From Folioceros fuciformis (taxonomy: Eukaryota): a stretch of DNA of 44,351 bases. Position 1 is the stretch's first letter. Each line of letters opens with the position of its first letter. Location: contig JBNGIO010006255.1 in the NCBI GenBank assembly GCA_049999805.1, positions 650,832-695,182 on the forward strand. The letters are read 5' to 3'. Below the pieces are notes generated by a model. The model was not told the DNA's origin. It did not search any database and saw nothing but the letters and a program-made list of their open reading frames with translations. A program made the position numbers and the translations under genes. Of this stretch, positions 478-20,104 are shown piece after piece.

Positions 478-3400
478 ATGGAAGGACCGGCGACCCCGAT
501 TCTGGGGTTGCTGTTTCTACTGATTTCCGGCTTGTTTATGAATGAGGGTGCTGGACAGGAGAGCGGGAGTGTGGACGCGGACATTGCTGCGTTACGGGCG
601 TTCAGGGCCGGGTTGGTGGATCTTGGTAACCAGCTCGGCACATGGGATGTGACGGATGGCGCTCCCTGTTCGTGGAAGGGCGTCCTATGCAAGAATCCAG
701 GGAGTGCCAGGGTGACTGGGTTGCAGTTACCGGGTCTGCTGCTGCAAGGAACAATTTCAGGTGCGCTCGTCTCCTACGGATGGCATCGCCCTTCTCTATG
801 CTGTCTTTTCGGAATGGAATAGTTCGGTTCTGATGTCGTGGAACGTTGTTGTCTGCAGACTCTCTTGGCTCGCTGAGTCAGCTTCAGCGAATCAGCCTTC
901 ATGGAAATTACTTCGTTGGTCCTATTCCTTCATCTATCGGAAATTGCTCTCAGTTGCGTATGGTGTTTCTGAACAGCAACAATCTGACAGGAGAGATACC
1001 CCAGTCGTTCGGAAAGCTGCTGCAGCTGCAGGTTTTGAACTTGGCTTACAATCAGCTTTCTGGAACCATACCTCCGACGCTGGGGAGTCTCCAGTCCCTC
1101 AAGACTCTCGATCTTGCCAGCAACCAGCTGTCAGGAAGTGTTCCCCTGCAACTTGCCGGCTGCGTCAGTCTTAACAACCTGGATCTTTCGGAGAACCTGT
1201 TGTCGGGGCCTATTCCGCAGGAGATTGGTAGTTTGTCTGCTCTGCAGACATTTAACCTCAGCCACAACATATTGGATGGGAGCATTCCATCATCGCTGTC
1301 ATTTCCAAGGGGGCTAAAGACTCTTGACTTGAGTCACAACGGTTTGTCTGGACCCGTTCCTGATTCTTTTGGGGTATGGGATGGCCTCAGTGTCCTAGAC
1401 CTCAGTCGCAACAATCTCACTGGGCAGGTACCGGCAATTATAGGCAACCTTTCTGCCCTTCAGATCCTTTCTTTGGGTGAAAATGGCTTTCAGGGTGCCA
1501 TCCCGCAGGCTATTGGGCGACTGTCCAATTTGCAGCAGTTGAACCTTTCTTTCAACTTCCTTGGTGGTATCATACCTGAGGGCATTACAAGCTTGCGAAG
1601 CTTGGCCACGCTGGATCTGCAGGCCAACTCCCTCACCTCGCAAATACCAACAGAGCTCAGCCAGCTACAGAATATACAGGTTTTGTCTTTGGCTGATAAT
1701 TATTTCCTTGGACCAATTCCGTCCACATTAGGAGCCATGCCCAGCTTACGCCAGCTAGCTCTTGGCGGTAACACATGGTCAGGGCCGATTCCACCTGAGC
1801 TAGGCAATCTGCAAAATCTGCAAGGGTTGTCTATCTCCTCCGGCGGTCTCGTTGGGGAGATTCCTCAACAGCTCTCCCAGCTCGTAAACTTGGAGGTGTT
1901 GGACTTGGGGAATAACTCTCTTTCGGGCAGTCTGCCCCTTTGGCTTGCGGATCTGCCGAGATTGCACTCCCTGAACCTTCGAGGGAACAGCTTCTCAGGA
2001 CCTATCCCTCCATCTTTTGGTAATCTCTCCTCTCTCCAGGTGCTGGATCTGAGCGGCCTAAACCTGTCGGGTTCTATACCCGCGGAGCTTACCAACTTAC
2101 AGAGCCTTAGGAACCTTTCTCTGTCATTTAATTCTTTGAGTGGGAACATTCCCAGTGCCATCTCCAGTATCCCTGGGCTGCAGGTGCTCGAGCTGAATGA
2201 CAACCTCTTCTCTGGTAGTCTGCCTGCGGACTTGGGACTGTTCAACAGTCTTCAGCTCCTAGATTTTTCGAACAATCAGCTCATCGGTGGGATCCCTACT
2301 GAGATGGGGAACATCAGCACCCTGGCTTTTCTTTATATCCGTGGTAACAAGCTGGTGGGCAACATTCCTTCGGAGTTGGGAGTCCTTGCACAACTTGAAG
2401 TTCTCGACCTTAGCAAGAACAACCTGACGGGTAGTATGCCGCAAAGCCTGGGTGACCTGTCCAAGCTAAGGATTCTCTACTTGGATGAGAATCATTTGAC
2501 AGGAGCTATTCCATCCTCATTCGCGAATCTGGTCAGTATGGTGGATCTCAACCTGTCTGGCAACGACCTTTCAGATAGCATTCCTTCAGGTGTGGGCAAC
2601 TGGAGCATGCTGAGCTCCTTGGATCTTTCTGACAACAAATTCAGTGGGCAAATTCCGCTCACCCTGGGCAGCTCACCTGACCTAGTCTTCCTCAATCTTT
2701 CGGGTAATGATTTTTCAGGTGCTATCCCCCCATCTTTCCAGAGATTTAACGAGACTTCATTTGCAGGCAACGCCTTGCTATGTGGTCCTCCGTTGAACGT
2801 GTCCTGTTCTGTTAGCGGCAAAAAGTCCGGCCTGGGAAAGGCCGCCATTATTGGCATAGGAACTGCTGGTGGATTTCTTCTGTTCATCGTCCTGGCTATC
2901 CTGGCTACCTACTTCTTCCTGCTATTGCTAAGGTCCGACAAGGCACTCATAAAGGAGCAATCGTCACCAGATCGGAAGCTAGTGATGTTTAACAGTCCCC
3001 TCCATTTCGGCAACATAGCTGAGGGTACTGGTCAGTTTGATGAGGAGCACGTTGTGAGCAGAACGAGACATGGTATCGTTTTCAAGGCAGTCCTGCATGA
3101 TGGAACCGTGCTGTCTGTGCGGAGGCTGCCTGACGGCGTGGTGGAGGAGAGCCTGTTCAGAGCAGAAGCTGAGATGCTGGGCAAAGTGAAGCACAGGAAC
3201 CTCACAGTACTACGGGGTTACTATGTGAGCGGAGATGTGAAGCTGTTGGTATACGACTACATGCCCAATGGCAATCTAGCCGCTCTCCTACAAGAAGCTT
3301 CGCATCAGGAAGGTCATATTCTTAATTGGCCAATGAGACACCTCATAGCTCTTGGAGTGGCTCGTGGCCTTTCCTTCCTGCATACCCAATGCAGCCCTCC

Positions 3401-3932
3401 CATTGTCCACGGTGACGTGAAACCAAATAACGTCCAGTTCGATGCAGACTTTGAAGCCCACCTCTCGGATTTCGGCCTGGACAAGCTATCTGTGACCCCT
3501 GTGGACCCGTCCTCTTCTTCTACTCCCGTAGGCTCCTTAGGGTATGTCTCCCCTGAAGCCAACATCTCGGGACAGCTAACAAGGGAAGCAGACGTATACA
3601 GCTTTGGAGTTGTTTTGCTGGAACTCCTCACGGGAAAGAGGCCTGTCGTTTTCTCTGAAAATGAGGATATTGTGAAATGGGTGAAGCGGCAGCTCCAAAC
3701 AGGGCAGGTTTCAGAACTTTTCGACCCGAGCTTGCTGGAACTGGACCCTGACTCCAGTGAGTGGGAAGAGTTCCTACTGGCTGTGAAAGTGGCGCTCCTC
3801 TGTACCGCTCCCGACCCCATCGACAGACCTTCCATGACGGAGGTGGTCTTCATGCTAGAAGGCTGCAGGGTACCAGGTACCGGTGTACCGAACTCTTCGG
3901 ACCCGCCCTCTCAGCTTTCTCCTGTAAGCTAG
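478..3932 (+). CDS. LRR receptor-like kinase, MUSTACHES / MUSTACHES-LIKE (At1g75640/At4g36180) type; 2 exons (478-760, 859-3932)
   Basis: Signal peptide and LRR N-cap (W..PCSWKGVLC) in exon 1. The GT-AG intron 761-858 joins G+AC=Asp in frame. About 20 plant LRRs, a C-cap (GNALLCG) and a TM helix follow. The kinase sequence FDEEHVVSRTRHGIVFKA...LSVRRLP...LLQEASHQEGHILNWPMRHLIALG...HGDVKP matches my recollection of the MUS/MUL subfamily. Confidence 0.93.
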
Positions 3933-6598: not shown

Positions 6599-7353
6599 CG
6601 TTCATGTGCCTGCTCGCAACCAGGGCACACAGACTGCTCAAGCTGATCTCAATCTCTTCACAAGTGTTCCATTACCTTCAAGCTGAATCTGATTGCATTC
6701 AGCTTGCTATCCAGTTCAAGCTGAATCTACGTGCATTGAGCTCGACACTGTGCTCCTTCACAAGCAACCCAATGGCTGAAAAGTCGACTCCAACAAATGA
6801 GTGTCTTGTAATCAAACGTCCCACGCCCAATTGGAATTGACGCTTGAAGGCCGCTTAAGGCCTCATTCACAGATGCTTGATGCTTTCCGGTTGTGGACCA
6901 GTCTCTCGGCTGACAGAGAATGGAAGAGGTAGAGGTTGTTTAACAACCCAGGTTTGGATCCGGGCCTGCGATTCAGCGGCTTTCGGATTCATTCCGGGAA
7001 GACATGGTAGCAGGAGAAGCTCAAAGAGCTCTACTTGTACTAATGTATGATTTTCTACCGTGGCGTCGATTCGATTACAGTTTTGTTTCTTAACCGCAGT
7101 TGCCAATTTATCCCTTTCAAGTCTTGGGACAACGTCTCTTGAATCCGCAGACCATCACCAGATGCTCGGCACTTTCAACATACCGCTTCCTCGAATTGGT
7201 ACAGGATGCGTTCTGAAACGTGGTGTTGGGATTGCGGAAGCAAGTGTCTTTGGCTACCATGGATACGAGCAGAGCCAGCCCAGCTGGCGGAGAGGAGCTG
7301 GGTTTTAGGTTCAGGCGATGACTGCGTAGGTGCAGCGTCTGCTCGTGCCAATT

Positions 7354-10300
7354 ATGGCCGCCTGGCGCGTTGCACGTCATTCATGCCGAGGGCGACGCAG
7401 CCTTGTACACATTTTTTGCAAGCCAGATCGGGTGAATGCGCACCTAACTGCTCTGGAAATGCAGACGGGTGGTCGTCGTGGTGCTGCATGCAACCGGAAG
7501 ATGACAGAGGATTCTGATCCACCGTGGCCTACAGGATACGAAAGGGGAGTAATGGCTGACACCGCGAAGAGACTGTCTCACGAAGGGCAGGTTGCGGAAG
7601 CTGTGGAGGCTCTGGGGGTTTTGGTGCAGGCAGATTGTCCTGTTTCCCAGCCTCTTCTCTATACAGTCGTAAAAGCATGTGTGGTCGGCAGGGATCTGGT
7701 TCTGGGTCGCCGGGTCCATGCGCTTACAGTGAAAGGGGGGTATGACTACATATACACGTTCTTGTGCAACCACATCTTGCGAATGTATGCTTCTCATGCG
7801 AGGTTGCAAGAAGCGATGGATGTGTTCACCATGGCTCCGAAACCAGATGCCTTTATGTGGTCCTCCATAATCTCTGCACATGTGAAGCTTGGACAAGCTA
7901 AGCAGGCCATTCAATTGTATCATAGAATGCGCGAGTCATCTGTGAAGCCAGATGGCCATGTATTTGCAGCAGCCCTTCAGGCTTGCGCAAGAGTAGCAGA
8001 CCTACGCAGTGGGGAGCAGGTGCATGCCGATGTGTTGGCTAGTGGGGTTGAGCCAGATTTGTTTGTTTCCAATTGCCTGATGGATATGTATGCGAAGTGT
8101 GGAAGCTTGAAAGATGCCAGAAGAGTGTTTGACGATCTTGGGGGAAGGGATGTGGTGACTTGGACTACTCTGATAGCAGGATATTCCCAGCAGGGTAAGG
8201 GTCAGGAAGCCCTTAATTTGTTCAGTGCCATGCAAGAAGAAGGCATCGCTGTACCCAATGCTGTCACACTAGCGTCTCTCCTGCAGGCCTGTGCCCGTGT
8301 TGGTACCCCAGCTTTGGAGAAGGGAAAGCAGCTTCATGCACAAGTCAGAGAACGAGGACTTCAAGCTGATGTGCTTGTAGCCAACAGCTTGGTAAACATG
8401 TATTCAAAGTGTGGCAGCTTGGAAGATGCTCAACGATTGTTTGATGGACTTGGTCAAAAAGATGTGGTGACATGGACAGCTCTGATTGCAGGATACTCCC
8501 AGCAAGGCTTGGGTCAGGAAGCACTTAATCTTTACAGTGTTATGCAAGAAGAAGGCGTCGCTGTACCAAACGCTGTGACTTTTGTGTCTCTCCTCCAGGC
8601 ATGTGCAAGTGTGGGTAGCCTGGCTTTGGAGAGGGGGAAACAGCTCCATGCACAGATTGGTGAACAAGGACTGGACGTTGATGTTGTCATACGTGGCAGC
8701 CTCGTAAACATGTATGCAAAGTGTGGAAGCCTGAAGGATGCACAGACTGTGTTTGATGGACTTTGTCAGAAAAGTGTTGTTGCAGCAACCACCCTGATCG
8801 CAGCATATGCGAAGTGTGGCAACTTGAAAGATGCTCGGAAAATTTTTGACGGGCTGCATCAGAAAGATGTGGTGTCTTGGAATGCCATGATCGCAGGATA
8901 TTCCCAACAGGCGATGGGTCAACAAGGGCTTCTTCTTTACAGGTCCTTGCAAGATGAAGGCTTGGTGAAACCCAATGCTGTGACATTTGTGTGCCTCCTG
9001 CAGGCATGTGCTGGTGTGGGATCCCCGGCTTTGGAGAAGGGGAAGCAGCTTCATGCAGAAATCAAAGAGCAAAGACTTGAAGAGGATGTGTTTGTAGCCA
9101 ACGGTTTGGTGGACATGTATGCAAAGTGTGGCAGCTTGGAAGATGCCGAACGAGTGTTTGACGGACTTCATAAGAAAGACACAGTCTTGTGGAACACCAT
9201 AATTTCTGGGTATTCACAGCAAGGCTTGGGACAGGAAGCCCTTCGTCTTTACAGGGAAATGCACAAAGAAGGAATAGCTGCACCGAATTCTGTGACATTT
9301 GTGTCCCTTCTGCAGGCATGTGCAAGTCTGGGTGCCCAAGCTTGGGAAAACGGAAAGGGGTTCCATGCTCAGATTAGAGAACAAGGACTTCAGGCTGAAA
9401 TGGTTGTCGGTTGCAGCTTGGTGAACATGTATGCGAAGTGCGGCAGCTTGGAGGATGCTCAAAATGTGTTTGACGGGCTCGGTCACAAAAATGTCGTGAC
9501 ATGGAATGCTTTAATAACAGGATATTCCCAACAGGGCATGGCACAGAAAGCCTTTCATTTATATAGTGCTATGCAAGAGGAAGGCATCACAACACCGGAT
9601 TGTGTCACATTTGGGTGCCTTTTACAGGCATGTGCAAGTGAGGGTGTCTCGGCCTTGGAGATGGGAAGGGAATTACATGCACAGATCAAAGAACAAGGGG
9701 TTCATGCTGATGTGTTTGTAGCCAACAGCTTGGTCAACATGTATGCAAAGTGTGGCAGCTTAAAGGATGCTGAGATCGTCTTTGATGAACTTGGTCAAAA
9801 GAACGTAGTAACCTGGACTGCAATGATAGCAGCGTATGCCCAACAGGGCATGGGGCATGAAGCCCTGCGTCTGTACAGGGTCATGCGAGAAGAAAGCATT
9901 ATCGCGCCTGACTCTGTCACATTCGTTTGCCTTCTGCAGGCATGTGCAAATTTGGCAGCTTTGCACGTGGGACGGCAGCTTCACGCACAGATAGAAGAAC
10001 AAGGGCTTCAAGCTGATGGCCTTGTAGCCGTCAGTTTGATAATTATGTATGCGAAATCTGGGAGCATGGTTCACGCACAACAAGTGTTTGACGCATTGCC
10101 AGGAAGAGATGTCGACGCCTGGAATGCGCTGATGGCAGGGTACACCCGTCAAGGAGACAGCCATGTGGTCTTTCACTTGTTTCACACGATGGCAAAGGAT
10201 GGAATCCAACCAACCAGCACCACACTTCTCAGTGTACTAACTGTGTGCAGTCACACGGGTCTAGTGAAGAAGGGGCGAGAGTACTTCGAAGCCATGAACA

Positions 10301-10830
10301 GGCAGTATGGGATAGCACCCACGACGGAGCATTACACATGCATGGTGGATCTACTAGGTCGCGCAGGCCAACTGGATGAAGCACTAGCGTTGGCAAGGAC
10401 GATGCCTGTACTGCCTGATGCTGCGGTTTGGCACAACATAATGGGTGCCTGTCGAAAGTGGGGTAACGTGGAGATAGGACGACATGCTTTTCATGAAGCC
10501 GTGAAGCTAGACAAAAAGGATGCCGCAGCATATGTCTCCATGTCGAACATATACAGCAGCGCCCAGATGTGGGAGCAAGCCCACGAGATGCAGTCGCAGA
10601 GAACTGGAATCGGGGCATGGAAACAACCAGGCCAGAGCTGGTGGACCGACATGGACGGGCTGGTCCATAGTTTCTGGGTGGGGGATAACAAGCACCCAGA
10701 GAGTGAAGGTATATACGCAAGGCTGAAACAACTTTTCTCCCAAGTGAAGGAAGAGAGGACAAATCTGAACTCGTCATGCGTCGATCGAAAGAAAGCTAAT
10801 CTTCTGTGTGTGGCTATGACCGGGAGCTAG
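7354..10830 (+). CDS. PLS-class pentatricopeptide repeat protein (organellar RNA-editing factor), E1-E2 plus truncated DYW:WW domain
   Basis: Intronless ORF with about 27 P/L/S motifs (VVTWTALIAGY, VTFVSLLQACA, NSLVNMYAKCGSLEDA), P2-L2-S2 (HYTCMVDLLGRAG), E domains and PG box KQPGQSWWTD. It stops before the deaminase motif. The first in-frame ATG is 7354; the true start is uncertain. Confidence 0.95.
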   Translation: MAAWRVARHSCRGRRSLVHIFCKPDRVNAHLTALEMQTGGRRGAACNRKMTEDSDPPWPTGYERGVMADTAKRLSHEGQVAEAVEALGVLVQADCPVSQPLLYTVVKACVVGRDLVLGRRVHALTVKGGYDYIYTFLCNHILRMYASHARLQEAMDVFTMAPKPDAFMWSSIISAHVKLGQAKQAIQLYHRMRESSVKPDGHVFAAALQACARVADLRSGEQVHADVLASGVEPDLFVSNCLMDMYAKCGSLKDARRVFDDLGGRDVVTWTTLIAGYSQQGKGQEALNLFSAMQEEGIAVPNAVTLASLLQACARVGTPALEKGKQLHAQVRERGLQADVLVANSLVNMYSKCGSLEDAQRLFDGLGQKDVVTWTALIAGYSQQGLGQEALNLYSVMQEEGVAVPNAVTFVSLLQACASVGSLALERGKQLHAQIGEQGLDVDVVIRGSLVNMYAKCGSLKDAQTVFDGLCQKSVVAATTLIAAYAKCGNLKDARKIFDGLHQKDVVSWNAMIAGYSQQAMGQQGLLLYRSLQDEGLVKPNAVTFVCLLQACAGVGSPALEKGKQLHAEIKEQRLEEDVFVANGLVDMYAKCGSLEDAERVFDGLHKKDTVLWNTIISGYSQQGLGQEALRLYREMHKEGIAAPNSVTFVSLLQACASLGAQAWENGKGFHAQIREQGLQAEMVVGCSLVNMYAKCGSLEDAQNVFDGLGHKNVVTWNALITGYSQQGMAQKAFHLYSAMQEEGITTPDCVTFGCLLQACASEGVSALEMGRELHAQIKEQGVHADVFVANSLVNMYAKCGSLKDAEIVFDELGQKNVVTWTAMIAAYAQQGMGHEALRLYRVMREESIIAPDSVTFVCLLQACANLAALHVGRQLHAQIEEQGLQADGLVAVSLIIMYAKSGSMVHAQQVFDALPGRDVDAWNALMAGYTRQGDSHVVFHLFHTMAKDGIQPTSTTLLSVLTVCSHTGLVKKGREYFEAMNRQYGIAPTTEHYTCMVDLLGRAGQLDEALALARTMPVLPDAAVWHNIMGACRKWGNVEIGRHAFHEAVKLDKKDAAAYVSMSNIYSSAQMWEQAHEMQSQRTGIGAWKQPGQSWWTDMDGLVHSFWVGDNKHPESEGIYARLKQLFSQVKEERTNLNSSCVDRKKANLLCVAMTGS

Positions 10831-11601
10831 CTATCCCATTTAGAAGACATAATCTAGCGCCCTAAAGGAGACCGTGTACCACAAGCAACTACTTCAGGCC
10901 ACAGGGCCAAAAAATCTGCTATTGGTGCACAGCGAGCAGGAATGGATGACGGCAACAAACCATGGAAAGCAAACGTCCAGAGAGATGGGAGCTGAAATCA
11001 TATTTTTAAAAACAGGCCCACAAACCAAAGGACAATAAATTCCTCTACGATAATGGAAGGAAATAATCAAGGGACACCAACACCATTGCTCAAAAACAGA
11101 AGAGTGACACCATTAAGGAGAAATACAGGTACCAAAAGTCTGTGCTCACACAGATAGCTATACATGGATGCCATGGATACAAATAATTGTTAGCGATTTT
11201 GAAAGAGGAAGGCCAGGAAATCTCATCCACACGAACTACTAACTGGATGTCGCCTAATAGGTAATGAAGACAGGATCGTAAGATGCCTATTTGGTAGTTA
11301 CGTGACAGCCGCAAAGTTGCTAGTAACTAGCTGAAACCATCGTCACGTTAGCCACATGACGATCGCACTACTGTAAATAACTATGAACAATTCTTAAACA
11401 AGAAAATTCCAGGGCTATAAATTGTGACATGGGCCTTGGACTTCACAGACTTGTGGAAAGCTAGTCTCGGAATCTCGGAGCTTTCCCAAGAGCCCAAGGA
11501 CTATACCCTTGCAAGTTCTTCATCATATATAGCAAGGTGGCTGCAAGAGGCTTCCGGATCTTAGCATTGTGCGGTACATGGTACCAAGGCACAGTGTCAC
11601 C

Positions 11602-14018
11602 ATGAACAAATTTTATGTTTTTATGTGTTTTGTGATTTTTATGAGTCACTTAAGCAACGCAAATGCTAAGAACTTTACTGGTCTTTACATCTTTGGAGAC
11701 TCATCTGTCGATGCTGGTAATAATCAACATCGGAATACTCATGGGTTAGCACGAGCTAACTTTCCTCCATATGGGCAAGATTTTATAAACCATGAAGCTA
11801 GTGGACGACATACTAATGGTTTTCTTGTCATTGATGTTCTAGCTCAATATCTCAATTTGACTGATCTGCCACTTCCCTATCTTAGTCTGCAAAATAATAA
11901 TCTTGGTGGAGCTATTAATTTTGGATCAGCTAGATCTGGTATTCTTTCAGATACAGGTGTACATCAATATGGAGATGTTATATCATTGAGGGACCAGCTT
12001 ATGTACTTCAGAGAAGATACATTAAACCAACTCCGTCAATATGATCCAGCAAACTATGCTTATCATGTAGCTAACTCTCTAATTTATGTGTCAACAGGAA
12101 ATAGTGATTGGATGGAATTTCTCGTAAGCAACAATGAAACCACATCGAAAGGAGCAAACCAATTTGCAGACAACATTCTAAGCGAATTTGAAGCTATCAT
12201 CCAAGACTTATATAATTTAGGAGTACGAAAGTTTATTATTGCAGAGGTGCAACCTCTAGGTTGTATGCCATTTATATTGGCAAAGCTTAATGCAACAAAT
12301 ACTTCGGGATCTTGTGTAGGTCATATCAACCAAAAGATTGTAGGTTATAATAACAAACTTCAAGTATCAATGAAGGACATGCTTGAACAAGATGGTGGAA
12401 TTCAAGACGCAAAAGTATTTATAGCTCCTACTTATCATATCACTCATTATTTGATAAAAAATCTTTCTAGTTATGGATTTGAAAGTAATACTGCATGTTG
12501 TGGTGGAGGAGCTTTTAATGGCCAAACTTACTATAAGCCAAATGCTTCTGCCTGTGATAATGCAAAACAACTTCCTTGGTGGGATGCCTTTCATGCATCA
12601 CAAGCAGTAAACAAAATTATTGGGCGAGAATTTTATTTTAAGTCATATCATCCTGCACCACCCCTTGTTGGTGCTATTGCAGATATTATTCAACACATCT
12701 ATGATGATGATCATAACTCATCAAGTCCATCAAGCTCAAGACCAATTTCAAGTCCACTAAGCTCAAGACCAGTTTCAAGCCCACCAAGATCGGCAACACC
12801 AGTGTCAACCCCAAGTGCATCGACAACTGTCCCCAAGCCAGTCGTCAAGGCACCCGTTCTTAGTCCAACGGCTAAGGCTCCTGTCCCCAAGCCAGTCGCC
12901 AAGGCACCCGTTCTTAGTCCAACGGCTAAGGCTCCTTTCCCCAAGCCAGACGCCAAGGCACCAGGCCGTAGCCCAATGGCTAAGGCTCCCATCCCCAGGC
13001 CAGTTGCTAAGGCACCTACCCGTAGCCCAACGGCTAAGGCTCCTATCCCCAGCCCAGCGGCTAAGGCTCCTATCCCTAGCCCAACGGCTAAGGCTCCTAT
13101 CCCCAGCCCAGCGGCTAAGGCTCCTATCCCTAGCCCAGCGGCTAAGGCTCCCGTCCGTAGGCCAGTCGCTAAGGCTCCTATCCCTAGGCCAGTCGCCAAG
13201 GCACCCGTCCATAGCCCAGTGGCTAAGGCTCCCATCCCCATGCCAGCCACTAAGGCACCTACCCCTAGCCCAGTGGCTAAGGCTCCCGTTCCTAGGCCAG
13301 CGGCTAAGGCACCCATCCCCACGCCAACGGCTAAGGCTCCTATCCCCAGCCCCAACACCAAGGGCCCAGTTGCCAAGGCACCCGTCCCCAGCCCAGTGGC
13401 GAAGGCTCCCATCCCCAGCCCAGTCGCCAAGGCACCCATCCCTAGCCCAGTGGCGAAGAAGGCACCCGTCCCCAGCCCAGTNNNNNNNNNNNNNNNNNNN
13501 NNNNNNNNNNNNNNNNNNNNNNNNNNNNNNNNNNNNNNNNNNNNNNNNNNNNNNNNNNNNNNNNNNNNNNNNNNNNNNNNNNNNNNNNNNNNNNNNNNNN
13601 NNNNNNNNNNNNNNNNNNNNNNNNNNNNNNNNNNNNNNNNNNNNNNNNNNNNNNNNNNNNNNNNNNNNNNNNNNNNNNNNNNNNNNNNNNNNNNNNNNNN
13701 NNNNNNNNNNNNNNNNNNNNNNNNNNNNNNNNNNNNNNNNNNNNNNNNNNNNNNNNNNNNNNNNNNNNNNNNNNNNNNNNNNNNNNNNNNNNNNNNNNNN
13801 NNNNNNNNNNNNNNNNNNNNNNNNNNNNNNNNNNNNNNNNNNNNNNNNNNNNNNNNNNNNNNNNNNNNNNNNNNNNNNNNNCAGCTGCTAAGGCTCCCGT
13901 CCCCACCCCAGTCGCTAAGGCACCAATCTCATCTTCTCCATTCTCTGAATTTGATGACCCTATTGACCCTGATAGCCCTGATGGTGATGGTATTCCTCCC
14001 TACATCCATGAGGACTAA
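11602..14018 (+). CDS. Secreted GDSL/SGNH esterase-lipase fused to a C-terminal Pro/Ala/Lys-rich repeat domain (spans an assembly gap)
   Basis: Signal peptide MNKFYVFMCFVIF..., block I IFGDSSVDAGNN, FPPYGQDF, GRHTNG, PLGCMP, CCGGG and block V WWDAFH. After the gap the repeat frame reads AAKAPVPTPVAKAPISSSPFSEFDDPIDPDSPDGDGIPPYIHED* (TAA 14016-14018). The ORF-track end at 14055 is in the wrong frame. Confidence 0.88.
12830..13926 (+). repeat. Coding minisatellite, 27-bp unit encoding AKAP(I/V)P(S/R/K)P(V/T/A)
   Basis: More than 20 visible copies of gctaaggctcc(t/c)atccc(c/t)agccca(g/a)(c/t)g, interrupted by the 400-N gap. Confidence 0.95.
13482..13881. other. Assembly gap (400 N) inside the minisatellite
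   Basis: Run of N. Confidence 1.
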
Positions 14019-14349
14019 AAAGAATTTGTTATGTTTTCAACTTGAACACTATTAGAATTGTTAGATGGATTGTTTAGGTGCTATTGGTAGTCACTAGGCT
14101 TTAGGGGGTTAGCCCTTAGTATTTCAATCATAATTTACCTCTGGGTTTTTTTTTAGGATTTAATTTTGGATTTAAAATTTGTTTTCTTTGACTTTTGTGG
14201 TCATCTTCACTTGTGACCCTTTTTTATTCATAATAAACACATTTTATTGAAGTTCTAGTACATTGGGTTTGTCTGGTGATATTTCAAGAACTTTAATTAA
14301 ACTAAATTCAAATGTCAATTAGATACATATCTTAAATCAAAATTGCCAT

Positions 14350-14664
14350 ACAACTCTCGCACTCCAGTCATTAGTGATGTTTAACGCAAGGCGCTATGGG
14401 TCACTGCGAAAGTAATGAGCTCACGAGTCTCGAGGTGCCTAGCCATGCCCACATGCCATCAACGGGCACATTGCTCAATGGCTCATGCCCAACGGGTAGC
14501 CCATTCCCGACGGCGCTGGTGCGGGAATGTGAGTGTTGCGCACCGATATTGTGTATACATACACAGTAATACATGATTAGACTGGCTAGGAGGAGAACAA
14601 TGGTTTTCCGGCCGGATGTGCCTGCAGATTTCAAACTGAGCTCCCTTCTCTCTCCCGGCTTTTC
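14350..14664 (+). repeat. Left TIR of the MULE
   Basis: ctcgaggtgcctagccatgc, tggctcatgcccaacgggta, gtgagtgttgcgc, ggagaacaatggtttt and tgcagatttcaaactgagctcccttctctctcccg all recur inverted and collinear at 18293-18550. Weaker similarity extends outwards. Confidence 0.9.
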
Positions 14665-14731
14665 ACTCTTCGGCTCCCGAAGGCATGCATTATTGTTCAG
14701 TCAAATACCTATGTTTCTGGAGCTTGTGACA

Positions 14732-15475
14732 ATGACGGAGTTTCAAGTGCCATTGCCTTGAGGTTCATCCGAAGAGCAATCTTATGAAGTAGAGTATAGG
14801 TGACAAGCAAGAGGCAACTTTGAAGACTCTACCTTTGGGATTGAGTTCAATGTCATAATGAAGGTTGATTTGCAGAGTGTTGTTGCTTTATTGTCGAAAG
14901 ACGAGCCTATGCAACTTAGTAAGCTACCCGTTTAGGTAGTTGTTGTTGGTTTCGGTACTGGCTCGCATGTAACCCGTGGGTGCAATGAATGTATGACAAG
15001 AATGGCACCAAATGGCTGGTGTAAGAACTACAAAGTGCACACAACTAGTCGTGTCCAGTACCGTCTTTGATTATTAATTGAAGATGAAACCTGCCAAGCA
15101 TCGGTCGTTGTGGCATTTATCGTTGGCAAGGATTTCACTCATCTCACCCCTCAGGAATTCAATGTGAAGCAACTACAAGGCAAGGCCATTGGTGTATTTG
15201 AGAGATTGCAGGGAAGGCATTTCGACTGCCTCTTCTTCATCAAATGAGCAACAAGTAGACACTCCACTAGTTTAATAATCATACGAGTAGACGTAGGATA
15301 CATTCAAGAATTATTTCCACCAATGGACTCCACAGGAAGGTTTGCACCAATTACGCCTACAGCCTCTGTTGACAACCCATGTACTCCTCTACTACAAACC
15401 ATTCCTAGCTTTTTGGACATGGAGAGCACTCCGAGAGTAGTATATCATCATGTTGAACGATCAAGGGCCAAGAAA
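14732..15475 (+). pseudogene. RPA70 C-terminal-like (zinc ribbon + OB-fold) gene remnant inside the MULE
   Basis: One unbroken frame from ATG 14732 with five stops: ...VVVVGFGTGSHVTRGCNECMTRMAPNGWCKNYKVHTTSRVQYRL*LLIEDETCQASVVVAFIVGKDFTHLTPQEF...FERLQGRHFDCLFFIK*... This fits the RPA1 DBD-C pattern CxxC...WCxxC...YRLxLxIxDxT. The 3' end is uncertain. Confidence 0.65.
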
Positions 15476-15933
15476 GTGACTTTGGCTCTACCTGTAATCC
15501 TTTGCTCATGCTTGTCCGTGACATTAACAATCATTATTGTCTCCCTACCCACTCTGCAGCTTATGGTGACTTTTATGCTTGCCTGCATTGCAGGCTTTGC
15601 CACGTGCTGGCTATTGTAAGTTGATGTACTGTTCACAAATGCAATCCCACGGTCTCTTCCTGTGGTTGGGATCACACAATATCTTCATGTGTCACAAAGC
15701 ACACAGAGCTAGTTTCAAACTCATGTTCGTAAATTGGAACTCAAATGTGTGGGATGCACGTTACATTCAATAGAAGATTAATCCCGCGATGCACTAGCCA
15801 TATGGACAAACGTGGTTGGCTTTTGTTTAGGAGGTAGCTACCACCCCCCTACCCTACTCTCCCACAATGGGAGCTTTCATTTCAACCTGTTATCATTGTT
15901 ACTAGTATTAGCTACCATAGGCAATAAAGGAAG

Positions 15934-18211
15934 TTAATTGCTCCCTTCAGTTTTCACACTTAGGCCTTCCAACTGCCTGATCAATGGCTGCAGCATTGCA
16001 CTTACATGACCCTGTATAGAAGGGTATTTGTCCACCACAACACTTATCTGGTCCCAAAGACATTCCAATGTTTGTGACCCTTGGCCCCTTGCACCTATAG
16101 TTGTCAGAAATTCACAGGACACTTGCATAGGCCGTACTTGTGATGTATGCGCTTGGTGGCTCCAAGGATGCTCGCCACAACTGCTGTATTGACAACCAAG
16201 AAGAGATTGGGCTGGCATACGTCGCTATTGAGTCTGCACAGTAGCAATTTTACAGTACTTGGCAACTAAATACCCAGTTGGAACTACTTTGTCTAAAAGC
16301 AACATCTCTTTGAACTGGTGCTTGCACATGAAGCCCTTGGCCCCTTGTTTGCAAGTGCACCAGCCCCACTGTGTACCAGCCCCACTCACAACATACTCTT
16401 TGAGTCTCCCAGATTCTTCATTGGTGACATAAGCAAAATGATTTGTGGATGCCACAGATGGTAGGAAACATGACCGTCTGGAATATTAGACGCTTTATGC
16501 AAAGCACTTCGAACTAGCTACTCCTGCTCACTATTTGGGATAATACCAACGGCTTTGCACTGAGCTACATATTAGAAATGACGATTTACTTCCTCAAACA
16601 AGATGTATAGTAACCAGTCGAGCCACTTGCTTCATAGGGTTTTCTTGAACAACAAACACCTATACTCTAAATGCTTGTGGTACACTTCAATTGAAGAGTT
16701 GCAATCCTAGCCTACGTAGGGCACGATTCTCGTAGCTTTTATCCATTGGTCCATGTTAGGACCCCATTCTTCCTTGAAATATCACACAAAGGTACTTGCT
16801 GAATGTTCGAAGGTCTCATAAAAGGCGTGCACCCACAATTTTGCTACTTCAATGTCATGGAGCCTATCAGGAGTGTCCATATACATCAATTCACCAAGCA
16901 CTTGCATAATTGCATGCCTCGTGGATGAGTCTTTTAACATTCTTGAGCAATTGACGTAAACATGCTCTAGGAATGTGCCACAAACAAAGAAATACCATGA
17001 TGGATGAGCTGACCACAGTTTTCATAGCATTTATTTCAGCTAGACAATCATCAACAAGGAAGGCAGTTGGTTGCCAATATGCCTTGTGCATAATCGTCTT
17101 TCCTTTCAAGTGGCCTAACCACTGGGCAATATCCGACCCTGTGGTTTTGCTTGTGATGATCCATGCCGCGGGGATACCGTTGAAGCGCTCATCGAACACT
17201 AAGAGAGTAAAGAGCTGGAATTTCTACTTATTCGTCCCGAATGTAGCATCCATTGCTATCACGGACTTATGGCCATACATGAGCATAGCTTGCATCTAGA
17301 ATTCATTTAGGATACAAAGCATGAAGTCCACACCCTGCTGGTCTGTACGCAGCTCTTGAAAGAAAACATGTTGCTGGTGGATGTCCATGGATATGTTGAC
17401 ACTGATTTCGTCAATTGCATGAAACCTCCACACTCATGCATCTAGTTCAGCCTGGATGTTCTTGATATCACGTGGCAATAAGAAGTCATCCCATTCTAAA
17501 ACAGCAGAAGGATCACGTTGCTTCCTCATGTACACTTTAGACTCATGATCTACTAGAATTTGAAAGGCCATTGTCTTGCATAAGAGCTTATACTTCACCC
17601 ACTACTTTTTTTGTAGAGGACAGGTAAGGAGCAAGCATGTAGTCGGGGCTTGGATTATGAGCAAGCAGTCCGTGACAGAAATGACCACTCAAACCCACAT
17701 GGTGCCACTCATGAACTCTCAATTGACCAATATGGGGATATGACTCTAGCTGGCTTACAAAGAGCTTAAAAAGACATACTCTCTCCGCAAGCTACTCTCG
17801 ACCTCCTACTTCTAGAACCCGATTTGGGCTTGTTAGTAATATCTAAACATGGTTCAGTGCTGCTCACAATTTTCTTACGATAACCATAAGCACAGCAAAA
17901 CTTGATATAATGAGATGGTGAGGTACCATACATGCCATGTTTCCTATTCCCTATCCTAGTCTACACATTGGCCCTCACTATTTTGGTAGGAAAGAATTTG
18001 GACTTTTCCTCGCTTGCAATGAAATCATGGTACCTTGCCCAAGGGATGTAGCATACCTTCACGGAGGTCACCACTTGCTTTTAAGCATGGATTGTATCTT
18101 GCCCCTGTTAGCATTCTTTGGAAAATTGACCAGGTGGTCGATGCTACACAACAAAGGGAAAAGCCTCTCCTTGGCCACAGTCACCACTTTCAATGAAAGA
18201 CGTAGATCCAT
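15934..18211 (-). pseudogene. MULE transposase with SWIM zinc finger, disrupted by stops and frameshifts
   Basis: YGHKSVIAMDATFGTNK*KFQLFTLLVFDERFNGIPAAWIITS...FLVDDCLAEINA...FLCLWH (first two Asp of DDE plus CxxH, ~16960-17280). SWIM motif CTC...GFMCKH at ~16318-16365. Confidence 0.92.
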
Positions 18212-18292
18212 TTGCCGTCCTTGGCAAGCGATGTCTGGATTAAGGAGACACGGTCATCACGGACGCCCTACTTATTCCGGAAAGATCACTTA

Positions 18293-18615
18293 TGAAAACC
18301 TTCGGGAGAGAGAAGGGAGCTCAGTTTGAAATCTGCACGCACATTCGGCCGTAAAACCATTGTTCTCCCTCCAGCCTGTCTGATCGTGCATTACTCTACA
18401 CGTACACACAAGACCGGTGGTATGCTGTGGTACTGAGTCGTCGCGCAACACTCACCGTCCCGCACCCGCGACATGGGATACCCGTTGGGCATGAGCCACA
18501 GGGCAATGTGGCCGTTGACGGCGTGCGAGCATGGCTAGGCACCTCGAGAATCGTTCGCCATAACCGATGGCGCCTGCAATGTTTAACTCAATGATACAGG
18601 GGGTGGCGTGGGATC
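18293..18615 (-). repeat. Right TIR of the MULE
   Basis: cgggagagagaagggagctcagtttgaaatctgca ... tacccgttgggcatgagcca ... gcatggctaggcacctcgag is the reverse complement of the left TIR. Confidence 0.9.
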
Positions 18616-18751
18616 GTACGTTGTCTTGAAAGGTCATGAATTTTGGGTACATCGTAATGCGCGTCCTAAATTAAGAACTATGAACTAAAGCGAACCTCAA
18701 AACGGCCCGCAGCCGCCCTGAACGCCGTCCAAAATTGAAGTGGGAAACCAT

Positions 18752-20104
18752 TTCTGTAGTCCACACCAAAGACGACAGAGTCAGGTGGCGACATAAAAGC
18801 GACTTTAATACAAAGTCAGAACATCGGTACGAAGCTTACAGATCTTGTTGAAGGCAACAATGTCGCAACTTTGGATGTAGTTTGAAGCAGGCTCACTCAA
18901 CAGAAAATCCTCGATTAGGTTATCCACTGAGACTAAATCATCCTCAATGGTCATCATGATCGTCAACTTCTTGATTCCTGCTACGACTGTCTGTAACTTG
19001 GCTGCAGATCACGGAGCAGAGGTATCACGTAAGACAACGGAGCAGGAGGCTAACAGCAGATCACCGTGCATGAGGACTAAAGCAGGGAAGGACAATTCCA
19101 AGACAACGAAATACCACGGCCCTGAGAACAAGAAGTACTTACAGGCACCCCACATAAGACCAGGCATTTCCACCCTGCGGACATGTTCCTCCAACAGTGT
19201 CATGTCCGTCTCGTCATCCCAAGGCTTAACGTCAAGCAGGACGGAAGACTTTCCGACTGCAAACATCACCATCATGAACATAATTAGCGCAAGGGTATTC
19301 ACATCCCGATCAAACAGCAACGTTGCTCTTGCGTGACAAAAACTAACATCCTGGACAGCGATACTGACCTACTTTTTTGCTCGTTCCCGCTTTCTTCAGA
19401 GCAGCTTCTCGCTCAGCTGCGGCAGCTTTCTCTTCTTCAGTCTCTTCTCCAAAAAGATCCAGATCATCGTCATCATCTACTGCCTGCTGAAAAGAACACG
19501 CAGTTAGCCTTCGTCCCACACAGACCTTCCACAAACAGGAGCCAGTCTTCGCGTGGCTGACCTGAGCTGGCTTAACCTCTGCAGGAGCAGGTGTGGTAGG
19601 AGCCTCCGGCACAGCGGCAGGGACAGACGGCGGGACAGGGACGAACTCCCGGTTCGTGGACGGATGTCCGATCACGACACCAGCACCTTGGCCCTGAAAG
19701 CTGTGGAGCCAAACGCAGTGTCAAGGACACCCAAAAAACAAGACATGAACCCAATCTCAAACTAAATCCAGGTGCTGAGTACCCAACCTGCTGCCCAGGA
19801 GGGCGCTGATGTGCCTATACCACCGGGAGACGTTGATTAGATCGGCGGATGGGATCCCCGTCAGAGCAGCGTATACGGCTAGATCATCCTTTGAAGCCTG
19901 GTAGCTGGACGATGTAGCACCACGTCAATCTTTAATCCGCATACGACATGCAGGTAGCAGCAGGCGCTTAAACCAAACACTGAAATCCACCAAAAGGGCC
20001 AAAGGCGGGAACTTGGCTTACGCCGAGATGTAGCTTCGCGTGAGCAGATACTCGTCCAGCTGCTTCAGCCCCTGGTGGCTAGAGATGTCCAACACAAGGG
20101 CCAT
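18752..20104 (-). CDS. Translation elongation factor 1-beta/delta (eEF1B); 7 coding exons (20104-20022, 19904-19788, 19700-19562, ~19486-19369, 19256-19143, 19001-18840, 18753-18752)
   Basis: [70 protein letters not shown] and [16 protein letters not shown] introns are in frame, and the stop codon T|AA is split by the last intron. Confidence 0.95.

What the first reader, a model, noticed from the sequence alone, without database searches (positions are those of the whole stretch)
14350..18615. Mutator element carrying an RPA70-like ssDNA-binding gene in the mudrB position
Seen: two ~300-bp inverted repeats enclose a MULE/SWIM transposase read inwards from the right TIR (-). A second long frame is read inwards from the left TIR (+, from ATG 14732), and each ATG lies within ~70-80 bp of its TIR. 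The second frame has CNEC...WCKNY...YRL*LLIEDET...GKDFTHLTPQEF. Established: maize MuDR has this convergent two-gene layout (mudrA/mudrB) with promoters in the TIRs. Known MULE accessory genes include mudrB, VANDAL vanB/vanC and KAONASHI ULP1 proteases, whereas RPA70-like OB folds are typically cargo of plant Helitrons. Inference: this may be a MULE family with a dedicated RPA-like accessory protein, for example binding ssDNA during gap repair or replicative transposition, or acting in anti-silencing. I do not know of such a family, but cannot search the literature here.
Basis: partly seen in the sequence, partly recalled or inferred. Interest (0 to 1): 0.85.

Follow-up and report, generated by a model that had tools for sequence, protein, structure and literature searches.

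The report
Dead Mutator transposon with orphan second gene
This is a decayed Mutator-like DNA transposon in a land-plant genome that carries a second broken gene of unknown family beside its transposase, and the suggested resemblance of that gene to an RPA-type single-stranded-DNA binding protein rests on weak hints only.

Summary
Window 14386-18578 is a 4,193-bp Mutator-like element (MULE). It has a perfect 9-bp target-site duplication (ATGTTTAAC), ~275-bp imperfect terminal inverted repeats (TIRs), and a minus-strand transposase (Pfam MULE, E=1.4e-7; fern relative at 43% identity). A second frame on the plus strand (14732-15619) starts 74 bp inside the left TIR. Both genes are dead. The transposase has at least 8 in-frame stops and at least 3 frame changes. 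ORF2 has 5 internal stops.

ORF2 looks ex-coding: 6 stops in 296 codons against 16±3.8 expected. Diverged contigs (~87% identity) in the same organism's runs carry the left TIR plus ORF2, so it is not a one-off capture.

The RPA70 reading is not established:
- Pfam Rep_fac-A_C, NCBIfam and PDB gave no match.
- An exhaustive scan of 1.84 billion proteins gave no match.
- Two AlphaFold models were unusable (pLDDT 34 and 37).
- Two weak leads remain: a language-model first hit to a plant Rep_fac-A_C cluster (0.80), and a sub-threshold Pfam POT1A OB-fold hit (E=0.11). There is also a CX2C-X9-CX2Y motif.

No Helitron end bounds ORF2 and it shows no likeness to host RPA1. Verdict: an ordinary fossil two-gene MULE whose accessory gene is possibly (~55%) a DBD-C-type OB fold.

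The parts
14377..14385 (.). Left copy of the 9-bp target-site duplication ATGTTTAAC
   Evidence: Read and confirmed by script. Identical to 18579-18587.
14386..14658 (+). Left terminal inverted repeat (about 273 bp)
   Evidence: The inner 66 bp are 63/66 identical to the right TIR. The outer part is about 80% identical, with indels.
14732..15619 (+). ORF2: second gene in the mudrB-like position, a pseudogene with 5 internal stops (codons 10, 24, 68, 113, 172)
   Evidence: for the translation. for stop depletion (P=0.0022). for a diverged paralogous contig covering 14391-15153. No homologue.
14936..15316 (+). Candidate OB-like core of ORF2. It includes the CX2C-X9-CX2Y zinc-ribbon-like string (Cys codons at 14981, 14990, 15020; Tyr TAC at 15029)
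   Evidence: for positions. OB_POT1A E=0.11 and DUF6661 E=0.09-0.13, both far below cutoffs. Atlas first named hit to a Rep_fac-A_C cluster, score 0.80, for 15071-15247; no usable hit for 14936-15067.
15934..18211 (-). MULE transposase pseudogene (outer limits: first ATG 18211, last stop of the C-terminal frame near 15934)
   Evidence: for frames, with at least 8 in-frame stops in the core; residues 134-625 of a 785-aa fern protein map to 17776-16294 in frames -2, -3, -1, -3.
16936..17490 (-). DDE / MULE catalytic core
   Evidence: Pfam PF10551 E=1.4e-7 and PF21056 E=6.3e-6. 42.7% identity to P0003 over 185 aa.
16294..16413 (-). SWIM-type zinc finger region
   Evidence: 45% identity to P0003 residues 586-625. 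In P0003 that stretch holds its Pfam SWIM match at 599-622, 19.1 bits against a cutoff of 19.6. The CxC...CxH string is visible.
18302..18578 (-). Right terminal inverted repeat (about 277 bp)
18579..18587 (.). Right copy of the 9-bp target-site duplication ATGTTTAAC

Best explanation
Window 14386-18578 is a fossil of an autonomous-type Mutator-like element (MULE) that inserted between a GDSL-lipase gene and an EF-1-beta-like gene of a land plant and made a 9-bp target-site duplication.

When active, the element worked by cut-and-paste. A DDE transposase (MULE domain plus SWIM finger) was read inward from the right TIR. It bound the ~275-bp TIRs, excised the element and reinserted it. A second gene was read inward from the left TIR, in the position mudrB occupies in maize MuDR.

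That second gene (ORF2, about 170-200 codons of likely coding sequence) belongs to the family; it was not captured by this copy alone. I read it, at about 55%, as a small single-domain OB-fold protein with an embedded zinc ribbon of the RPA70 DBD-C / POT1 type. Such a protein would bind single-stranded DNA at transposition or gap-repair intermediates.

Both genes are now pseudogenes, so the locus does nothing today.

Shown: the element's boundaries, the transposase family, the decay of both genes, the coding-like frame, and the presence of ORF2 in at least one diverged copy. Inferred: the OB fold, ssDNA binding, and any role in transposition.
For: MULE identity:
- Perfect 9-bp TSD. The Mutator range is 8-11 bp according to PMC6446971 (passages).
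- TIRs.
- Pfam MULE above its gathering cutoff.
- 4 of 357 candidates with E<=1e-3, the best an Adiantum protein at E=4.5e-40 and 43% identity.

Layout: ORF2's ATG lies 74 bp inside the left TIR and the transposase frame's ATG lies 91 bp inside the right TIR, and the two are convergent. MuDR has two convergently transcribed genes with promoters in the TIRs (PMC3440606, passages).

ORF2 as a former coding frame:
- 6 stops in 296 codons against 15.96±3.81 simulated, P=0.0022; the other frames have 9-21.
- All 5 internal stops are TGA or TAG, each one transition away from a sense codon (inference).

Family-borne: diverged contigs from runs of the same organism cover left TIR plus ORF2. X2 record 9 covers 14391-14883 with 59 mismatches. 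Record 10 covers 14814-15153 with 45 mismatches, and its deletions of 1 and 2 nt at 15102 and 15105 sum to one codon.

OB / RPA-type leads:
- The intact 58-aa piece 15071-15247 has as its first named Atlas hit a 368-member Streptophyta cluster in which 71% of members carry PF08646 Rep_fac-A_C (score 0.80, 124 of 256 features shared). All ten best family-bearing hits share that family or clan.
- The 104-aa piece 14936-15247 has Pfam OB_POT1A as its best hit (E=0.11, 12.7 bits) across the Cys motif and the following strands.
- A CX2C-X9-CX2Y string sits where DBD-C carries its C4 finger (DBD-C features from PMC8329085, abstract and passages). The Tyr codon TAC is one G>A change from Cys TGC.
Against: No significant match ties ORF2 to any family.
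- Pfam gave 0 families at E<=10 for the 248-aa and 400-aa read-throughs. PF08646 never appeared, even for short pieces.
- NCBIfam gave 0.
- PDB phmmer at E<=10 returned only unrelated chains: HP1029, repebodies, Arl3 and PEPCK.
- phmmer against 1,835,955,588 representatives gave 0 hits at E<=1e-3.
- 0 of 716 word-sharing candidates reached E<=10.

The Atlas score of 0.80 is reached by a third of shuffled proteins, and so is the all-ten-agree pattern. The recognition value of 1815 is below the tool's 2300 mark. The second piece, which carries the Cys motif, gave no usable hit.

OB_POT1A at 12.7 bits is far below its cutoff of 27. It ties with DUF6661, a family of unknown nature. I tried about 13 ORF2 pieces and frames, so an E of 0.1 is weak.

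Only three Cys are present. Both AF2 models are unusable. No intact copy was seen. The paralogous contig has a 97-nt rearrangement at 14814-14894, so it is probably broken too. The hydrophobic tail 15470-15619 does not look like an OB protein.
Confidence: 0.5

Rival explanations
1. The element is the same fossil two-gene MULE, but ORF2 is a lineage-specific orphan accessory protein that is not an OB fold. It would be comparable in status to mudrB, vanB or mutB. The RPA-like strings would then be coincidence.
For: Every calibrated search was negative. The Atlas lead and the Pfam lead are each within chance range by the tools' own figures. The Cys-bearing piece gave nothing in the Atlas. MULE second ORFs are typically family-restricted and of unknown function (PMC6446971, passages).
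Against: Two different methods applied to ORF2 pieces put the a-priori predicted fold class first among thousands of families. The Cys spacing and the following pattern sit in the right order for a zinc-ribbon OB fold.
Confidence: 0.3
2. ORF2 is a passenger. It would be a truncated fragment of a Helitron-borne or other TE-borne RPA-like gene, picked up by an ancestral element (transduplication) and carried along without any role in transposition.
For: RPA-like genes are known cargo of plant Helitrons (PMC6431247 and PMC7385966, passages). ORF2 would hold only one OB domain and lacks the others of RPA70. MULEs are prone to capture (PMC6446971). No intact copy was seen.
Against: The frame starts with an ATG 74 bp inside the TIR and reads inward, exactly mirroring the transposase. 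That is the layout of a transcribed accessory gene and not of a random fragment. No Helitron 3' hairpin plus CTRR-T was found on either strand of 14600-16000. No parent gene is detectable anywhere. The frame stayed nearly open over 296 codons.
Confidence: 0.12
3. ORF2 never coded for anything. The low stop count would be chance in the spacer between the left TIR and the transposase 3' end.
For: No homologue exists and no fold was obtained. There are 5 stops, and a hydrophobic low-complexity tail. After correcting for six frames the stop-depletion P is only about 0.013.
Against: Stop depletion is specific to this one frame. The only indels listed for the paralogous contig in this stretch (1 nt at 15102, 2 nt at 15105) together remove one codon. 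The ATG placement mirrors the transposase. There are weak family leads.
Confidence: 0.06

Closest known systems
Maize MuDR (mudrA / mudrB), Mutator superfamily
   Same: Both have long TIRs (about 215 bp in Mu, about 275 bp here) and a 9-bp TSD. Both have two convergent genes, each starting just inside a TIR, one of them a MULE-domain transposase (PMC3440606 passages).
   Different: ORF2 has no detectable likeness to any protein in 1.84 billion representatives. That library should include maize proteins, so ORF2 is not a mudrB homologue. The transposase's nearest relatives are fern and eudicot MULE/SWIM proteins at 33-43% identity. This copy is dead.
Other MULEs with extra ORFs: Arabidopsis Hiun/VANDAL (vanB, vanC), yeast Mutyl (mutB), plant MULEs with an antisense PMD domain
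   Same: All are Mutator elements that carry a family-specific second ORF beside the transposase (PMC6446971 passages).
   Different: No PMD or other Pfam domain was found in any of the six frames of 14600-15950. The orientation is convergent. MutB is described as a DNA-binding protein and vanC as anti-silencing. The function of ORF2 is unknown.
RPA70 DBD-C (Pfam Rep_fac-A_C) and the RPA-like genes of plant Helitrons
   Same: The order of features in ORF2 is the same: a hydrophobic strand, a Cys-pair zinc-ribbon-like insert, then strands. The first named Atlas hit is a plant Rep_fac-A_C cluster. DBD-C is an OB fold with an integral C4 finger between beta1 and beta2 (PMC8329085).
   Different: No calibrated match to PF08646 or to any RPA chain was found. 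Only three Cys are present, there is a single domain, and it sits in a TIR transposon instead of a rolling-circle element. No RepHel and no Helitron ends are present.
Pack-MULEs
   Same: Mutator TIRs enclose non-transposase sequence.
   Different: This element keeps its (decayed) transposase, and ORF2 has no identifiable host parent.

Membership tests
Mutator superfamily (MULE) | DDE transposase with the MULE domain | tested here: met
   PF10551 E=1.4e-7, 32.2 bits against a cutoff of 27.6. Relatives at E down to 4.5e-40. tblastn map.
Mutator superfamily (MULE) | Target-site duplication of 8-11 bp immediately outside the TIRs | tested here: met
   Perfect 9-bp ATGTTTAAC at 14377-14385 and 18579-18587. 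The 8-11 bp range is from PMC6446971.
Mutator superfamily (MULE) | Terminal inverted repeats, often long (tens to hundreds of bp) | tested here: met
   About 273-277 bp, 76-88% identical by method.
Mutator superfamily (MULE) | SWIM zinc finger C-terminal to the catalytic core (present in many plant clades, not all) | tested here: inconclusive
   Pfam SWIM did not report for the window frames at E<=1. The CxC...CxH string is present. It aligns at 45% to the SWIM stretch of P0003, which itself scores 19.1 against a cutoff of 19.6.
MuDR-type two-gene elements | Two convergent genes, each starting just inside a TIR | tested here: met
   ATG 14732 (+) is 74 bp from the left TIR and ATG 18211 (-) is 91 bp from the right TIR. 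Transcription starts were not testable.
MuDR-type two-gene elements | Second gene homologous to mudrB | tested here: not met
   0 hits at E<=1e-3 in 1,835,955,588 representatives. This is indirect, because I did not confirm that mudrB is in that library.
RPA70 DBD-C / Pfam Rep_fac-A_C (PF08646) | Significant profile match to PF08646 or to a solved RPA70 chain | tested here: not met
   PF08646 was absent at E<=10. No RPA chain appeared at E<=10. NCBIfam gave none. The only lead is the Atlas one, at 0.80.
RPA70 DBD-C / Pfam Rep_fac-A_C (PF08646) | Integral C4 (or C3H) zinc finger between beta1 and beta2 of the OB fold (PMC8329085) | tested here: inconclusive
   CX2C-X9-CX2Y: three Cys, with Tyr (TAC) at the fourth position, one transition from Cys. 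Strand positions are unknown.
RPA70 DBD-C / Pfam Rep_fac-A_C (PF08646) | Five-stranded OB beta-barrel | tested here: inconclusive
   Single-sequence AF2 models gave mean pLDDT 34.0 and 37.5, too poor to search with.
RPA70 DBD-C / Pfam Rep_fac-A_C (PF08646) | ssDNA binding; C-terminal helix joining RPA32/RPA14 | not testable with these tools
   Needs protein from an intact copy.
Helitron (nested insertion) | 3' GC-rich hairpin followed by CTRR, insertion at AT; RepHel gene | tested here: not met
   No perfect stem of 6 bp or more with CTRR-T within 25 nt on either strand of 14600-16000. No Rep or helicase domain in any frame.
Pack-MULE | No transposase; carries recognisable host gene fragments | tested here: not met
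   The transposase is present though decayed. ORF2 has no detectable parent.

The most novel reading that the evidence does not exclude
A fern-lineage MULE family whose autonomous members encode, in the mudrB position, a dedicated single-domain zinc-ribbon OB-fold protein of the RPA70 DBD-C type. A cut-and-paste TIR transposon would then have recruited the same kind of ssDNA-binding helper that rolling-circle Helitrons carry, perhaps to protect or channel the single-stranded gap-repair intermediates that restore the donor copy. The family would be so diverged that only profile or structure methods with an MSA can recognise it.
Probability: 0.33. Interest if true: 0.6.

Novelty: new member of a known kind. 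Interest (0 to 1): 0.33.

Why it matters
Accessory genes of Mutator elements (mudrB, vanB/vanC, mutB) are few, family-specific and mostly unexplained. I found no report of an OB-fold or RPA-type accessory in a MULE in the held literature. If it were confirmed in intact copies, it would give a testable handle on how MULEs deal with single-stranded intermediates and gap repair, and a case of convergence with Helitrons. As it stands, the locus is a dead copy, the protein's identity is unproven, and the finding is mainly a pointer to look for intact family members in the full genome.

Tried and rejected
- Whole genome: none is held, so the TIR and ORF2 could not be searched in the source assembly.
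- Earlier findings: two look-ups returned nothing.
Two intact ORF pieces were then sent by reference. One gave a weak lead and one gave nothing.
- AlphaFold2 single-sequence folds of 14804-15340 and 14936-15316, with X at stops, gave mean pLDDT 34.0 and 37.5. Both were unusable, so no fold search was run.
- Pfam on the 248-aa and 400-aa read-throughs gave 0. NCBIfam gave 0. Pfam on the three minus frames of 14660-15950 gave 0, so there is no antisense PMD.
- PDB phmmer gave only unrelated low-score chains.
- Relatives of ORF2:
  - 0 among 1.84 billion representatives.
  - 0 of 716 candidates at E<=10.
  - 0 of 98 pattern matches in metagenome contigs.
  - 0 of 73 in prokaryote genome contigs.
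  - 0 of 5 in viral contigs.
- A 27-nt inner-TIR pattern gave 0 matches in metagenome contigs.
- Expression: no RNA holder is listed. The one run guessed to be RNA (X4) covers only 18606-18700, outside the element. This says nothing about expression.
- Paralogue sequences: read laying shows that diverged contigs exist but does not return their letters, and 607 differences were not shown. No alignment, dN/dS or check of the stop positions in other copies was possible.
- Rfam gave 0 matches in the window.
- Literature on the Pfam names DUF6661 and OB_POT1A gave 0 papers. The search for DUF223 and Rep_fac-A_C returned only unrelated DUF223x papers.
- blastn of the element against the window found no further copy or fragment.
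- Supplementary tables of PMC6446971 are closed. They might list further MULE extra ORFs that I could not see.


Full report
**What is there.** The sequence between 14386 and 18578 (4,193 bp) is bounded by a perfect 9-bp direct repeat, ATGTTTAAC, at 14377-14385 and 18579-18587 (read, verified).
- Its ends are inverted repeats. The repeat finder reports three collinear arm pairs: 117 nt at 85%, 82 nt at 88% and 40 nt at 80%.
- A MAFFT alignment of the two ends shows homology from the termini to about 14658 and 18302, broken by three indels. blastn scores the pair at 75.8% over 269 columns, E=2.8e-55.
- A 20-nt core of the repeat occurs exactly twice in the 44-kb window, in inverted orientation, against 0 expected from 100 shuffles.
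- The inner 66 bp of the repeats are 63/66 identical, while the outer part is about 80% identical.

**The transposase.**
- On the minus strand, a read-through of 15700-18330 matches Pfam MULE (PF10551, E=1.4e-7, 32.2 bits, cutoff 27.6) and ZSWIM1-3 RNaseH-like (E=6.3e-6).
- A search of longer proteins with the core found 4 of 357 candidates at E<=1e-3. The best are two Adiantum proteins (E about 5e-40, 43% identity), then Bertholletia and Theobroma.
- tblastn of the 785-aa Adiantum protein maps its residues 134-625 to 17776-16294 in frames -2, -3, -1, -3. That is at least three frame changes.
- The core frames contain at least 8 in-frame stops.
- The C-terminal CxC...CxH string in ORF 16225-16485 aligns to the SWIM stretch of the fern protein.
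- The transposase is therefore real, of the MULE/SWIM type, and dead.

**The second frame.** From ATG 14732, 74 bp inside the left TIR, one plus-strand frame runs to 15619. It has five internal stops, four TGA and one TAG.
- The frame has 6 stops in 296 codons. A first-order Markov simulation gives 15.96±3.81 (5000 runs, P=0.0022), and the other five frames have 9-21. After correcting for six frames this is still about 0.013, so the frame was probably coding once.
- Every internal stop is one transition away from a sense codon (inference). This fits slow decay of a silenced element.
- The transposase-side ATG (18211) lies 91 bp from its TIR.
- The convergent layout matches maize MuDR, which has two convergently transcribed genes with promoters in the TIRs (PMC3440606, passages read).

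**Is ORF2 a family feature?** No genome is held for this window. Two DNA runs of one sample, possibly the source itself, hold the stretch. I laid four runs on the stretch at 80% likeness. Besides the identical contigs, this showed diverged ones:
- X2 record 9 covers 14391-14883, with 59 mismatches and 44 gap letters.
- X2 record 10 covers 14814-15153, with 45 mismatches. Its deletions of 1 and 2 nt at 15102 and 15105 sum to one codon.
- X1 record 3 covers 15730-16305, with 73 mismatches.
- One joint skips 17388-18205, which indicates an internally deleted copy.

At least one other copy, about 86-88% identical, therefore carries the left TIR followed by ORF2. ORF2 was in the element before these copies diverged. 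That copy also shows a 97-nt rearrangement at 14814-14894 and frame-breaking deletions in the transposase, so it is probably dead too. Contig depths suggest a low-copy family. The tool does not return the contig letters, so no alignment or dN/dS was possible.

**Is ORF2 RPA70-like?** Every calibrated test was negative.
- Pfam gave no family at E<=10 for the 248-aa read-through or at E<=1 for the 400-aa one. NCBIfam gave none.
- phmmer against PDB returned only unrelated chains at E 0.2-1.9.
- An exhaustive phmmer run over 1,835,955,588 representatives gave 0 hits at E<=1e-3.
- The word-indexed search gave 0 of 716 candidates at E<=10.
- Scans of metagenome, prokaryote-genome and viral contigs gave 0 relatives among 98, 73 and 5 pattern matches.
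- Two single-sequence AlphaFold2 models had mean pLDDT 34.0 and 37.5 and were not used further.

These results rule out a recent capture of a host RPA1 exon, because land-plant RPA1 proteins would have been hit.

**Leads in favour.**
- The intact 58-aa piece 15071-15247 has as its first named Atlas hit a 368-member Streptophyta cluster in which 71% of members carry PF08646 Rep_fac-A_C. All ten best family-bearing hits agree in family or clan.
- That score is only 0.80. By the tool's own figures a third of shuffled proteins reach it, and the recognition value is low.
- The 44-aa piece with the Cys motif gave no usable hit.
- When Pfam was given only the 104-aa core 14936-15247, its best hit was OB_POT1A (E=0.11, 12.7 bits, cutoff 27) across the Cys motif and the following strands. 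It ties with DUF6661, whose nature I could not establish.
- The motif is CX2C-X9-CX2Y. The Tyr codon TAC is one G>A change from Cys.
- DBD-C of RPA70 is defined by an OB fold interrupted between beta1 and beta2 by a C4 finger (PMC8329085, abstract and passages).
That is a lead, not a test.

I put the OB/RPA70-C-type reading at about 55%.

**Other readings.**
- No Helitron 3' hairpin plus CTRR-T lies on either strand of 14600-16000, and no Rep or helicase domain is present. A nested Helitron is therefore unlikely.
- No PMD or other domain lies antisense to ORF2.
- Three rivals remain: an orphan accessory protein that is not an OB fold (about 30%), a passenger fragment of a TE-borne RPA-like gene (about 12%), and a chance open frame (about 6%).

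**Context.**
- The neighbours are an intronless LRR receptor kinase, a PPR-E protein, a GDSL lipase with a proline-rich repeat tail, and an EF-1-beta-like gene.
- The kinase's best identity is to Ceratopteris (56% over 71% of the query), with angiosperms at 44-47%. With the Adiantum transposase hits, this suggests a fern-like host, not a bryophyte.
- The element sits about 320 bp downstream of the lipase ORF.
- The element lies about 20 bp from the end of a high-depth contig of the run guessed to be RNA.

**Literature.**
- Reviews list mudrB, mutB, vanB/vanC, PMD and FAR1 as MULE extras (PMC6446971, passages).
- They place RPA-like genes in Helitrons (PMC6431247 and PMC7385966, passages).
- Four searches combining MULE/Mutator terms with RPA terms found no paper describing an RPA-like gene in a MULE.
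- Repbase and the supplements of these papers could not be checked.

**Verdict.** The element is an ordinary, old, dead two-gene MULE. Its second gene is family-borne and without detectable relatives. The RPA70-type identity is a plausible but unproven lead, and it can only be settled with more family members.

Noticed in passing
window 11533-14055 (+), repeats 12865-13481, N gap 13482-13881: A single 840-codon open frame joins a GDSL lipase domain (Pfam E=1.6e-19) to a long proline-rich tail. The tail is built of about 18 or more copies of a 27-bp (9-aa, AKAPxPSP-like) unit. The array runs into a 400-N assembly gap, so its true length is unknown.
   Followed up: partly
window 834-3932 (+) and 7330-10830 (+): Two very long intronless ORFs: an LRR receptor-like kinase (1032 aa) and a PPR protein with an E motif (1166 aa). 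The kinase's closest identity is to a fern (Ceratopteris, 56%), which argues that the host is fern-like rather than a bryophyte.
   Followed up: partly
window 18606-18700 and 19343-19720 (-): A contig of the run guessed to be RNA (depth about 444) starts about 20 bp right of the element's TSD and runs rightwards towards an EF-1-beta-like acidic ORF on the minus strand. The MULE may therefore sit almost exactly at the 3' end of a highly expressed gene. Contigs cannot prove a transcript end.
   Followed up: no
window 14593-14658 and 18302-18367: The inner 66 bp of the two TIRs are 63/66 identical, while the outer 200 bp are about 80% identical with indels. This could mark the former promoter/5'UTR or a transposase-binding block, or simply a CpG-poor stretch that decays more slowly.
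   Followed up: no
run X3 laid on window 14300-18700: The X3 contigs differ from the window almost only by G>A (317) and C>T (46), as bisulfite-converted libraries do. They are therefore not evidence of sequence variants. In principle they could inform on methylation of this element if raw reads were available.
   Followed up: no
window 16355-16386: A 16-bp unit is present twice in tandem (93% match) inside the SWIM-region coding sequence of the transposase.
   Followed up: no
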